This document shows positions 18,001 to 21,000 of a DNA stretch of 64,000 nucleotides, one piece after another. Made by a program: the position numbers. The stretch is from Negaprion brevirostris (Eukaryota). The stretch lies in NCBI GenBank assembly GCA_030324005.1, contig JARDVH010000001.1:123262584-123326583 (forward strand), in the 5' to 3' direction. The stretch's first letter is position 1, and each line of letters begins with the position of its first letter.

Positions 18001-21000
18001 CACTGGGATTGAGAAAACTTCACAATACATTCAGCACAATTTACAGTGGATTCCCACAGAAAGTTATAACAGCTTTGAGTTACAGCACACACTCAGTACA
18101 GAGGTCTGCTGTAGCTCATGCTCACAGCAGGTGGGATGTGTAAAAAAAAACTTGTGATCTTTGGGAAATATTAATTTTTAAAAAGAAATTCAAATTCCCA
18201 GTTATTAATTGAAAAAGCTAAGCCACAGGATTTCATGTTTCAAACAAAAACTTTTATGATACAAGAATTAAACAAAACAAATACTACTCATTTAAAATCT
18301 CTCTCATAGACACTTGGATTTTTAAACTCTAAAATCTCAGAAGATCACTTTCCATTCCATTTTTAATTCCACCTGAGTTCCCCAAAATGTTACAGGATCT
18401 TGAGGGTTCCTTCATTTCTTCTAAGACCAAACCAAGGTGTGCCATAGCACCTGGGGATTTATTTTGATTGTCCTCAGTTTTGTTATTTCTATCCAAGGCA
18501 TGGATTTCTTGAAATCTTTCCACTTGCATTTGGCCAGATTCTATCCTGATTGTGAACACCCCAGCCTGAGCATGGGGCCTCTCTGCTTTTTTTTTTGGTC
18601 AGTTAGAAAGACCCTTGTCTCATAAATCTTTACCACTGGTCTGAACTGCTTCCAAGCACAGTAGCCACTATTACTGGCTAATAACTAGTTTTCTCTCTCT
18701 CACTCTCTCTCTGCTATGACTGTAATAAAACACAGTTGCACTCAATGTACAAGAGTACCTTCCCCTGGAACCTGTCCCCATGGCAGTGTTGCACCCCTGG
18801 CATGTCCCAGTTTGTAGAGGGGGTCAGTGGACTTGAAATGTTAACTGTGTCTCTCTCTCCACAAATGCTGCCAGACGTGCAAAGTTTATTCAGCATTTTC
18901 TGTTTTTATTTCCTCAGACTTGCTGTTTTGTGGCCCTCACTCTTTTAACTCTGTACGTACACATTTGATGCATTAACTGCCTTGGGTGATCTGGGAACTT
19001 CTGAATTACAGAGTTTCAATTTAATTTAGTTTCCACAGATTTGAAAGTTACATTCTGAAAAAATGAATCATGAAATGAAATGTTTTCACAAGGCGAATTG
19101 AATTTTCTCTTTCACACAGGCAACTGATCTGCTGACACAGGCAATGAGCGAGTTATCACAGACGCTGACGACAGATTACCGCCCACCTCAAGGAGATTAT
19201 CAGCGCGTGCAGTACATTCCTATCTCTCAACACCTCCAATCAGTTCAGGGACAGCAGCCTCAACACATCCAACTCCAGGTGGTACAGGTGGCACAGGTGG
19301 GTTGGGTTAGGGGTATGCATGTATGCTCAAAATAAATAAGAGGACCGGTCTTTAACAAAGAAAAGCAGAGGCTAGATGGAAAATACTAAGCAAAAGCTAT
19401 GGGTGTGGAAAACTTGGGTGGGCAGGACTGAAAACATAATAAAAGGAAGGAATGCAGGAACAGGAGTGGGCTATTCAGCCCCCTGAGCCTGTTCCATGAT
19501 TTAATTAGGTCACGGCTAATCAAAGCACTTGCTTTGGTCTTTATAATCTTTATTACTCATTCTGATTATCATCCTTCAGCCTCAGTTTCTAAATTTTCAA
19601 TTAATGCCAGCCTCATTAGCTTTTTGGGTTATTTAGTTTCAGATTTCCGTCACCCTTTGTGTGAAGAAGTGCTTCTTGACATTATCCCTGGCCGATCTAG
19701 TTCTACCTTTTAATGTTATTTTTCCTTATTCCCACTAAAGGAAATAATTTCTCTCAATGGCCAATTGGATAATTCATCTTCAATGCTTAATCTTCTGTAC
19801 TCGAGCAAATGTCAGCCAAGTCTCTGCAATCTATAACCATTTTAACTCTGATATTAACCTGAGAATTTGCACTTTACTCCCTCCAAAATATACTCCAGGC
19901 CAATTTACCCTCCTCAGTGTGGTACCCATAACTGAACTCGAAATGAGGTCTGACCAGTGCTTAATATAACTGTGACACGTTGGGAATGCCACTAGACTGG
20001 CAATCAAGATCCCAGGCTAAAAGTCTGGGTTCAAATCCCACCACAGAGCTGGTGGAATTCAAGTTCAGTTAATAAACCTAGGATTGAGAGCTAGTTTCAG
20101 TGATGGTGACCATGGAACTATCGCATTGAAGTCTCATTGCTTTTGCCCACTCACTCAATCTCAAAATGTCACTTTGCCACTTTCTGTTTGCGCATAGATG
20201 CTGCCAAACTAGGATATAAGACTTTCCATTCCTTTATCCAAGTCATTTATAAACATAGTGACAAGTTGAGGCAAATTCTTCAAGAACATCACTAGTCATC
20301 TGCCAAGTTGAGTGCCTATTGTCCCTACACATAGGCCCAGTTGAATTCATGATGAACTTAGCCACATCAGCCACTGTGGAATATCAGGGCTCAGATGAAT
20401 TCCCAAGATGCACAGTATTAAGTGGGAAGTCAGCCTCTGTGGATTGCTGCAACACTAAATCCACCAGTGTAAAATTGGGCAAGATGTCCTGAACTTGCCC
20501 GGAAATTTACTCCAGAATACTTACTGTTAATCACTGACGTAGGACCAGAGTTGAGAGCGGTTAACAGCAGAAACTATATTGGGAAGGCCTCAAAATGTAC
20601 TTAAAATAAACTGACTCAACAATTAACACTCTGCTCATCCATCTATCTCCTGCCCACCCACAAAAGGCATCCCTTCCATTGATGGCCTCAAAGAAAGTTT
20701 GGTTTTTGTACTCCTCACCTCCGAGTGCTTCTCAAGGTATCTGAGCACACTCAAATAACCACTCCACCAGTGGCAGAATCCTGCAGATGGGATTGGGAAA
20801 CCCCTTATCTCCAGCAGACACAGGGAAGGTTTCACTGTGGTCAGCAGTATGTACCTTGAAATCACCGCTGCCTGGAACATCAGGGCCATTGTTTCCTTCC
20901 AACCACTTCCCTGTTATTGACCAATAAAGAGAAGGATCTCTTTTGAAGTGGCTCCTAGTTGATGTGTCAGGCTTATGAATGAGATCCAGTTGGGAAAATC

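What the first reader, a model, noticed from the sequence alone, without database searches (positions are those of the whole stretch)
19120..19296. Intact orphan PRDM10-like exon embedded antisense in a FHIP1A intron
Seen in sequence: a clean 177-nt symmetric (phase 0-0) exon with a polypyrimidine tract, AG and GT sites, no stops and retained CpGs, on the strand opposite FHIP1A. Recalled knowledge: the peptide matches the region of PRDM10 that follows its zinc fingers. In human, PRDM10 and FHIP1A are on different chromosomes. I could not find the adjacent PRDM10 exons (SKTKMVQHIRKKHP upstream, the Q-rich exons downstream) in 64 kb. Intron-like flanks are kept on both sides, so this is not a processed retrocopy. 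Inference: it is a DNA-level or unspliced-RNA capture of a PRDM10 fragment (segmental duplication, transposon-carried exon or LINE transduction). It could be raw material for exon shuffling or part of an antisense transcript. A misassembly is the main alternative.
Basis: partly seen in the sequence, partly recalled or inferred. Interest (0 to 1): 0.75.

Follow-up and report, generated by a model that had tools for sequence, protein, structure and literature searches.

The report
Lone PRDM10 exon inside FHIP1A intron
A perfectly intact single exon of the gene PRDM10 sits backwards inside an intron of the unrelated gene FHIP1A in a draft shark assembly, and it is either a young, probably functionless duplicated gene fragment or simply a small contig that the assembly put in the wrong place.

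Summary
Window 19120-19296 (+) is a 177-nt open, phase 0-0 segment with AG before and GT after it. Its 59-residue peptide is a PRDM10 exon: E=1e-25, and 58 of 59 identical to Mustelus asterias PRDM10. Homology stops exactly at both splice sites. No other PRDM10 exon is in the 64 kb. FHIP1A is confirmed on the minus strand with eight colinear exon matches. In scaffold order the PRDM10 exon lies in the ~18-kb intron between the exons for aa 380-407 and aa 407-475. It is not a processed retrocopy.

The link to FHIP1A is weak. The exon sits on a 10,937-nt contig (11593-22529) bounded by two unsized 100-N gaps, and this contig carries no FHIP1A exon. Placement therefore rests on scaffolding alone. 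One LINE that could span the left gap gives modest support for true adjacency.

In eight other elasmobranchs PRDM10 and FHIP1A are on different sequences, so an ordinary overlapping gene is unlikely.

My estimates are soft:
- Real, recent DNA-level copy, an unprocessed gene fragment with no shown function: about 0.45.
- The species' native PRDM10 exon on a mis-scaffolded contig: about 0.38.
- Other explanations: the rest.

No TSDs, TIRs or transduction signature were found. Either way it is a known kind of thing, and interest is low.

The parts
19120..19296 (+). Intact PRDM10-type coding exon (59 codons, phase 0-0)
   Evidence: It is 58/59 identical to Mustelus asterias PRDM10 aa 521-579 of the partial protein P0252. 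The only difference is V35I, at a site that is V in 111 of 111 named non-human PRDM10 sequences.
19100..19119 (+). Acceptor: pyrimidine-rich tract and AG
   Evidence: Read directly: gaattttctctttcacacag.
19297..19302 (+). Donor GTGGGT
   Evidence: Read directly.
18913..19433 (+). Non-repeated core around the exon (521 nt), the largest stretch with no copy elsewhere in the window
   Evidence: The flanking stretches 18841-18912 and 19434-19522 match other places in the window at 69-78% identity.
11593..22529 (.). The 10,937-nt contig that carries the exon. It is bounded by 100-N gaps at 11493-11592 and 22530-22629 and has no FHIP1A exon.
   Evidence: N runs; FHIP1A exon map.
26926..27009 (-). 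FHIP1A exon (aa 380-407 of Mustelus FHIP1A), the upstream neighbour in the host gene, on another contig
   Evidence: 96% identity, E=3e-10.
8745..8951 (-). FHIP1A exon (aa 407-475), the downstream neighbour in the host gene, on another contig
   Evidence: 94% identity, E=8e-37.
11434..11484 (+). LINE ORF2 piece (start of the reverse-transcriptase region) at the left edge of gap 1
   Evidence: matches P0350 aa 204-220 (59%, E=0.002) and P0386 aa 347-368 (E=4.5e-4). These values come from a search space of about 1.6 kb.
11594..11703 (+). LINE 3'-terminal region at the right edge of gap 1, inside the exon's contig
   Evidence: 11633-11696 matches 53914-53979 (77-81%). That stretch lies 52 nt after an ORF2 C-terminal match at 53461-53862. 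It ends in three ATGTTCT units.
22334..22529 (+). LINE reverse-transcriptase piece running into gap 2
   Evidence: P0350 aa 396-466; weak Pfam RVT_1 match, E=0.023.
21374..21598 (+). Old LINE ORF2 C-terminal fragment 2 kb downstream of the exon, on the same strand
   Evidence: aligns to P0350 aa 521-601 with score 65, reached by 0 of 300 shuffles. The other 4 references gave no support.

Best explanation
The segment is genomic (unspliced) PRDM10 DNA: one complete coding exon with its own splice sites and short intron flanks. It lies antisense in the FHIP1A intron between the exons for aa 380-407 and aa 407-475. I commit, narrowly, to the reading that it really lies there as a young DNA-level duplicate of part of the PRDM10 locus. 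That would make it an unprocessed gene fragment. It would have arisen by an ordinary small segmental duplication or a repair-mediated insertion, and would be too recent to have decayed.

Shown: its identity as a PRDM10 exon, its intactness, the lack of neighbouring PRDM10 exons, and its scaffold position and strand.

Inferred: that the scaffold position is true, that a parent copy exists elsewhere, that the copy is recent, and that it does nothing. It is expected to be transcribed only as the antisense strand of FHIP1A pre-mRNA. On that strand its splice sites are meaningless, so it has no function of its own.
For: Identity and unspliced origin:
- E=1e-25 to PRDM10 and 58/59 identity to Mustelus PRDM10.
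- Homology ends exactly at AG and GT.
- 5 of 5 PRDM10 queries find no other exon in the window.

Placement:
- Eight FHIP1A exon matches on six gap-separated pieces are all in the correct order and orientation, so the scaffold is locally reliable where it can be tested.
- The left gap is flanked by an early ORF2 piece (+) on the FHIP1A-validated contig and by a LINE 3' terminus (+) on the exon's contig. One LINE could therefore span the gap. I judge this about three times likelier under true adjacency than under a random join; that factor is my estimate, not a computed value.
- GC content of the contig (0.411) equals that of the window (0.411), which is only weak support.

Not an ordinary overlapping gene:
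- PRDM10 and FHIP1A sit on sequences of different length in Heterodontus, Rhincodon, Hypanus, Mobula, Heptranchias, Scyliorhinus torazame, Stegostoma and Chiloscyllium punctatum.
- In Mustelus the C-terminal 776 aa of PRDM10 fit on a 135-kb sequence.
Against: No continuous sequence joins the exon to any FHIP1A exon. Both sides are unsized 100-N joins, and the right join has no supporting feature.

The exon is as well preserved as a native, selected exon would be. It has one conservative change, intact splice sites and CpG o/e 0.50. That is exactly what the misplacement rival predicts.

A short-read assembly would tend to collapse or break a very young duplicate, yet the contig runs unbroken for 7.5 kb upstream and 3.2 kb downstream of the exon.

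No duplication boundary, TSD or TIR was found. No parent copy could be looked for, because no shark genome collection is available here.

The LINE-across-the-gap argument rests on short, weak matches, and I could not show that the two halves belong to one family.
Confidence: 0.45

Rival explanations
1. Scaffolding artefact. The 10.9-kb contig is the species' only, native PRDM10 exon with its native intron, and a scaffolder slotted it into the FHIP1A intron. A variant is that it is the collapsed representative of the PRDM10 locus. There would then be no orphan exon in the animal.
For: The contig is bounded on both sides by exactly 100 N and has no FHIP1A exon.

The 100-N runs are unsized joins, not length-true masks. 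At gap 1 an ORF2 piece at about aa 204-220 is followed 100 N later by the LINE 3' end. At gap 2 an RT piece at aa 396-466 is followed by non-LINE sequence. One scaffolding product is described as adding 100 Ns per join without sizing (PMC5545040, passages seen).

Contigs in this window break inside a high-copy LINE RT core at 22529, 37105, 42409 and 57801. This is a fragmented draft.

The exon is as conserved as an orthologue. It is 58/59 identical to Mustelus, while the native S. torazame exon differs from Mustelus at 2/59. Splice sites and CpGs are intact.

The PRDM10 region appears hard to assemble in the nearest relative. Mustelus PRDM10 is annotated as partial on a 135,467-bp sequence.
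Against: The flanks of gap 1 fit one LINE spanning the join. Six of six testable pieces of this scaffold are correctly ordered and oriented. The contig is mostly non-repeated within the window, so true links to its real neighbours should have been available to a scaffolder. Its composition does not stand out from the window.
Confidence: 0.38
2. Retrotransposon-mediated capture. An unspliced stretch of PRDM10 pre-mRNA, or a LINE read-through transcript carrying it (transduction), was reverse-transcribed into the FHIP1A intron.
For: The exon keeps its intron flanks, so an unspliced template is possible. A repeat ends 208 nt upstream, at 18912. A same-strand LINE ORF2 C-terminal fragment lies 2 kb downstream at 21374-21598. 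LINEs are abundant in the window.
Against: The only candidate flanking direct repeat is 18 nt with 16/18 matches, at 18916 and 21767. It is one of 5 such families in 5.5 kb, which is what chance gives, and its right copy lies inside rather than after the LINE fragment. No tail or LINE 3' terminus adjoins the segment. The flanking repeats are old, at 69-78% identity to other copies, while the exon looks young. The fragment at 21374-21598 is supported by 1 of 5 references only.
Confidence: 0.05
3. Ordinary overlapping gene. PRDM10 of this species really spans this region on the + strand, with its other exons outside the window or hidden in N runs.
For: The exon has functional-looking splice sites and is fully conserved. 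2563 bases of the window are N.
Against: No other PRDM10 exon lies in 19 kb upstream or 45 kb downstream. In Mustelus the last 776 aa fit within 135 kb. In eight other elasmobranchs the two genes are on different sequences. Eight FHIP1A exon matches would have to interleave with PRDM10 exons on the other strand.
Confidence: 0.03
4. Chimeric contig. A single wrong turn of the assembler inside a repeat joined true FHIP1A intron (the left part of the contig) to PRDM10 intron (the right part, with the exon).
For: This would reconcile the LINE continuity at gap 1 with the lack of any support at gap 2. Repeats flank the exon core on both sides.
Against: The repeats next to the exon are old (69-78% identity to the other copies seen), so they are poor substrates for a k-mer mis-join. 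No discontinuity in composition was seen.
Confidence: 0.06

Closest known systems
PRDM10 (PR/SET domain 10), the exon after the zinc-finger array
   Same: 58/59 residues match Mustelus asterias PRDM10 and 56/59 match Cetorhinus and S. torazame. The boundaries are the same: the native proteins change from ...GDTIV to ATDLL... at the start and from ...QVAQ to ASSPQQ... at the end.
   Different: It stands alone. No PR/SET exon, zinc-finger exon or Q-rich C-terminal exon lies within 64 kb. It has Ile where 111 of 111 named non-human PRDM10 sequences have Val.
Unprocessed (duplicated) pseudogene or gene fragment in an intron of another gene
   Same: It is a single exon with intron flanks and splice signals. 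It is not fused to neighbouring exons, and it lies in non-coding DNA of an unrelated host gene on the other strand.
   Different: Such fragments usually carry disabling changes, and this one has none. The existence of a parent copy and of duplication boundaries could not be tested. This comparison rests on general knowledge, not on a paper read here.
LINE-mediated transduction / exon shuffling (L1 3' transduction in mammals)
   Same: Non-LINE host sequence, which can include exons, is moved to a new locus. Only the listing and abstracts were seen. The concept itself is recalled.
   Different: The defining layout was not found: a LINE directly upstream, then the transduced segment, a tail, and TSDs.
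Scaffold mis-join in gap-rich draft assemblies
   Same: It is a small piece bounded by unsized 100-N joins. It carries a gene fragment foreign to the surrounding, otherwise colinear gene. Unsized 100-N joins are described in PMC5545040 (passages seen).
   Different: One join has a feature that fits true adjacency: LINE halves in the right order and orientation.

Membership tests
PRDM10 coding exon | Significant, position-specific similarity to PRDM10 proteins | tested here: met
   E=1e-25, and the named hits among the 120 listed are all PRDM10; 58/59 identity to Mustelus PRDM10.
PRDM10 coding exon | Homology limits coincide with splice sites in phase | tested here: met
   the match covers residues 1-59, with AG and GT directly outside. 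The intron positions of native PRDM10 genes were not seen; they are inferred from where the window's homology ends.
Complete PRDM10 gene | Neighbouring exons (PR/SET, zinc fingers, C-terminal Q-rich part) nearby on the same strand | tested here: not met
   5 of 5 queries hit only this exon; no Pfam domain in the peptide.
Processed retrocopy | Adjacent exons fused without introns, and a poly(A) tail | tested here: not met
   the sequence outside the exon is unrelated to the neighbouring coding sequence. No A-tail is seen.
Unprocessed duplicated gene fragment | A parent copy elsewhere in the same genome | not testable with these tools
   No shark genome collection is available. Genome contigs holds bacteria and archaea only.
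Unprocessed duplicated gene fragment | Continuous sequence linking the fragment to the host locus | tested here: inconclusive
   100-N gaps on both sides; no FHIP1A exon on the contig; a LINE may span the left gap.
LINE transduction | A LINE end adjoining the moved segment, and target-site duplications around the whole | tested here: not met
   the only candidate direct repeat is at chance level and is misplaced.
DNA-transposon capture (TIR elements) | Terminal inverted repeats flanking the captured fragment | tested here: not met
   six inverted pairs of 14-18 nt, none paired around the exon core in a way beyond chance. Helitron ends were not tested.
Scaffold mis-join | A piece bounded by unsized gaps with no host-gene marker on it | tested here: met
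Scaffold mis-join | No reads spanning the joins, and the native locus lacks the piece | not testable with these tools
   Neither the reads nor the rest of the assembly are available.
FHIP1A (host gene) | RAI16-like domain and colinear match to FHIP1A orthologues | tested here: met
   PF10257, E=2e-51 and 1e-12; 98% identity to Mustelus FHIP1A, with eight colinear exon matches covering aa 33-895.

The most novel reading that the evidence does not exclude
The copy is real and is kept intact by selection. Under this reading a PRDM10 exon captured into the FHIP1A intron is spliced into a plus-strand (antisense) transcript or a new chimeric gene in this shark lineage. That would be a caught-in-the-act case of exon shuffling in a cartilaginous fish. 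The evidence does not exclude it: splice sites, frame and CpGs are intact, and the single change is conservative. Nothing supports it beyond that intactness.
Probability: 0.03. Interest if true: 0.55.

Novelty: new member of a known kind. Interest (0 to 1): 0.18.

Why it matters
If real, it is one more example of a young, unprocessed gene fragment lodged in another gene's intron. That is the raw material for exon shuffling, but it is common in vertebrate genomes and has no shown function here. If it is an artefact, it matters only for curation: the assembly would have a misplaced contig, and PRDM10 of this species would be annotated with a missing exon. Neither outcome opens a new question.

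Tried and rejected
- **Target-site duplication.** An 18-nt direct repeat at 18916 and 21767 (16/18 matches) was rejected. It is one of 5 families in 5.5 kb, about what chance gives for 10-nt seeds. Its right copy also lies within a LINE fragment that should continue past it.
- **Terminal inverted repeats around the exon.** None were convincing.
- **Strand skews as a test of which gene's transcription unit the contig belongs to.** The contig has GC skew -0.082 and AT skew -0.024. Contigs validated by FHIP1A exons range from -0.125 to +0.109, so the measure is too noisy to use.
- **Pfam on 10 ORFs of the contig and the gap edges.** The only result was a weak RVT_1 match (E=0.023) at 22337-22444, so Pfam could not annotate the old repeats.
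- **Motif searches for the two flanking repeats at up to 3 mismatches.** Only the query sites themselves were found. A more permissive blastn did find copies.
- **Search with the 77-aa read-through ORF for near-identical genomic ORFs.** It gave 41 unnamed hits at 63-79% identity, none near-identical. They were not fetched because some may come from people's samples, so whether the intron flanks are conserved in other species stays unchecked.
- **V35I as a sign of relaxed constraint.** This was rejected as uninformative. The native S. torazame gene also carries a change (T18A) at a site otherwise invariant in 109 of 111 sequences.
- **Continuity at gap 2.** The sequence right of the gap shows no LINE similarity, so this is neutral.
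- **Literature.** The search 'PRDM10' + 'FHIP1A' gave 1 paper, unrelated (listing only). The search 'shark genome' / 'gene fragment' / 'misassembly' listed nothing relevant among the 10 shown.
- **Spliced models.** Exons were handled one by one.
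Full report
**1. The observation**

The sequence at 19120-19296 (+) is as described. A pyrimidine-rich tract and AG (19118-19119) precede it, and GTGGGT follows it. It translates to 59 residues without a stop.

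An open frame of this size is not notable here. All three plus-strand frames are open across it, and the window contains 110 stop-free stretches of at least 77 aa. The evidence that it is a real exon comes from homology.

**2. Identity**

The peptide finds 561 proteins with E<=0.01, and the named ones among the 120 listed are all PRDM10. Cartilaginous fishes come first: Cetorhinus E=1e-25, then Heterodontus, Scyliorhinus torazame, Hemiscyllium, Rhincodon, Heptranchias, Callorhinchus and rays.

Among cluster members, the Mustelus asterias protein differs at one residue only, so 58 of 59 are identical. The window shares 'QHLQSVQ' with Mustelus and S. torazame, against 'QHIQPVQ' in other sharks. 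Its FHIP1A is also closest to Mustelus (98%, against 97% for S. torazame on the first exon, and 92% against 83% on the large exon). The source is therefore a carcharhiniform shark nearer to Mustelus than to Scyliorhinus. I did not try to go further than that.

The one difference, V35I, is at a position that is Val in 111 of 111 named non-human PRDM10 sequences. Native genes also carry such singletons, for example T18A in S. torazame. The change therefore says nothing about relaxed constraint.

Homology ends exactly at the splice sites. Native proteins read ...GDTIV before and ASSPQQ... after, while the window reads through into unrelated residues and a stop. This excludes a processed retrocopy.

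CpGs are retained. The exon has 6 CpG (o/e 0.50), against 0.08-0.23 in the flanks, and only 2.2% of 177-nt windows reach 6 CpG.

**3. Orphan status**

tblastn of five chondrichthyan PRDM10 proteins against the window finds this exon only. All 5 queries agree, and every other hit has E>=0.87. Four per cent of the window (2563 N) could not be read.

**4. The host gene**

FHIP1A is on the minus strand. Pfam RAI16-like matches two ORFs. Three shark FHIP1A proteins map colinearly to eight exon matches:

| FHIP1A exon match (window, minus strand) |
|---|
| 61390-60758 |
| 46119-45925 |
| 41672-41526 |
| 40028-39855 |
| 27009-26926 |
| 8951-8745 |
| 7673-6585 |
| 3480-3292 |

The PRDM10 exon therefore lies, in scaffold coordinates, in the roughly 18-kb intron between the exons for aa 380-407 and aa 407-475, on the opposite strand.

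Exons were treated one by one.

**5. The weak point**

The window is a gap-rich draft with 15 N runs, ten of them exactly 100 N. The exon lies on a 10,937-nt contig, 11593-22529, bounded by 100-N runs on both sides. This contig contains no FHIP1A exon, and the two flanking FHIP1A exons are on other contigs. Its placement therefore rests on two scaffold joins.

These N runs are true unsized gaps, not length-preserving masks:
- At the left gap, an ORF2 piece matching reference aa 204-220 is followed 100 N later by a LINE 3' end.
- At the right gap, a reverse-transcriptase piece (aa 396-466) is followed by non-LINE sequence.

Contigs in the window repeatedly break inside the same reverse-transcriptase core, at 22529, 37105, 42409 and 57801. 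This is typical of repeat-limited assembly. One scaffolding product is described as adding 100 Ns per unsized join (PMC5545040, passages seen). I do not claim that it was used here.

**6. Evidence on placement**

For true adjacency:
- The two sides of the left gap are an early and a terminal part of a LINE, both on the + strand and in the right order. One element could therefore span the join. The matches are short, with E=0.002 and 4.5e-4 in a tiny search space for the left side and 77-81% DNA identity to another LINE end for the right side. I could not show that the two parts belong to one family.
- All six pieces of the scaffold that carry FHIP1A exons are correctly ordered and oriented.
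- The contig's GC content equals that of the window.

Against, or neutral:
- The right join has no supporting feature.
- The exon's perfect preservation is what a native exon would show.
- A very young duplicate would be hard for a short-read assembler to keep apart from its parent, yet the contig is unbroken around the exon.

**7. An ordinary overlapping gene is unlikely**

Contig lengths reported with the hits show PRDM10 and FHIP1A on different sequences in eight species:

| Species | PRDM10 sequence (Mb) | FHIP1A sequence (Mb) |
|---|---|---|
| Heterodontus francisci | 83.8 | 287.9 |
| Rhincodon typus | 37.9 | 178.3 |
| Hypanus sabinus | 45.0 | 195.4 |
| Mobula birostris | 67.9 | 211.0 |
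| Heptranchias perlo | 33.7 | 198.6 |
| Scyliorhinus torazame | 135.7 | 385.9 |
| Stegostoma tigrinum | 40.3 | 194.1 |
| Chiloscyllium punctatum | 93.5 | 181.2 |

In Mustelus the last 776 aa of PRDM10 lie on a 135-kb sequence. Introns of more than 19 kb and more than 45 kb around this exon would therefore be unusual.

**8. Mechanism of a possible capture**

The non-repeated core around the exon is at most 521 nt (18913-19433). It lies between old repeat fragments that match other places in the window at 69-78% identity.

I looked for signatures of transposon- or LINE-mediated movement:
- An 18-nt imperfect direct repeat at 18916 and 21767 is at chance level. Its right copy sits inside a LINE ORF2 fragment at 21374-21598, which is supported by 1 of 5 references with 0 of 300 shuffles reaching the score.
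- No inverted terminal repeats bracket the exon.

If the copy is real, a plain DNA-level duplication is the default. Transduction has no positive support.

**9. What could not be done**

No shark genome, reads or RNA data are reachable with these tools. The parent locus, copy number, read depth, join-spanning reads, the orthologous intron and transcription all remain unchecked.

The 41 unnamed hits to the read-through ORF reach up to 96% coverage of the 77 aa, at 63-79% identity. This hints that the immediate intron flanks are conserved in other vertebrates. The hits were not fetched because some may be from people's samples. Nothing in the window was taken for human.

Literature searches for 'PRDM10' with 'FHIP1A' and for shark gene-fragment misassembly gave nothing relevant.

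**10. Verdict**

The probabilities below are soft estimates, not computed values:

| Explanation | Probability |
|---|---|
| Real, young, unprocessed PRDM10 fragment in the FHIP1A intron, without function | about 0.45 |
| Native exon on a mis-scaffolded contig | about 0.38 |
| Chimeric contig | 0.06 |
| LINE-mediated capture | 0.05 |
| Overlapping gene | 0.03 |

In every case this is a known kind of feature or an artefact, so interest is low.

Noticed in passing
window 22334-22529, 36732-37094, 42015-42401, 57825-57979: Four contig ends stop inside the same part of a LINE reverse transcriptase, at reference P0350 aa ~289-466. Two of the pieces (22332-22472 and 57948-57801) are 85% identical. 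A young, high-copy LINE family seems to be what fragments this assembly.
   Followed up: partly
window 7382-7400: A 19-N run lies inside the large FHIP1A coding exon (7673-6585). The host gene's own coding sequence is therefore incomplete in this assembly.
   Followed up: no
window 6585-7673: The large FHIP1A exon evolves much faster than the rest of the gene. It is 92% identical to Mustelus, 83% to S. torazame and 82% to Carcharodon, against 95-98% for the RAI16-like first exon.
   Followed up: no
window 11808-12110 and at least ten other sites (e.g. 27587-27876, 28159-28428, 43980-44215, 61954-62144): An abundant element of about 300 nt, SINE-like by size and copy number, has copies at 70-90% identity on both strands. 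The family name was not determined.
   Followed up: no
window 42528-43304: A long CT-rich low-complexity block gives 'SLSLSL' ORFs of 111-200 aa in several minus-strand frames. It is a simple repeat, not a gene.
   Followed up: no
protein P0252 (Mustelus asterias PRDM10): In the nearest named relative, PRDM10 is annotated as partial (776 aa, lacking about 387 N-terminal residues) on a 135,467-bp sequence. FHIP1A of that species is on a 202-Mb sequence. The PRDM10 region may be hard to assemble, or partly duplicated, in this group of sharks.
   Followed up: no
window 19102-19335: Unnamed database ORFs align to up to 96% of the 77-aa read-through, that is, beyond the 59-aa exon. This suggests that the intron bases next to this PRDM10 exon are conserved across species. 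The hits were not fetched.
   Followed up: no
window 17118-17270 (-): A LINE ORF fragment matches reference P0376 aa 25-63 (48% identity, E=2e-6) about 1.9 kb upstream of the exon on the opposite strand. It is one of several old LINE pieces in the exon's contig.
   Followed up: no
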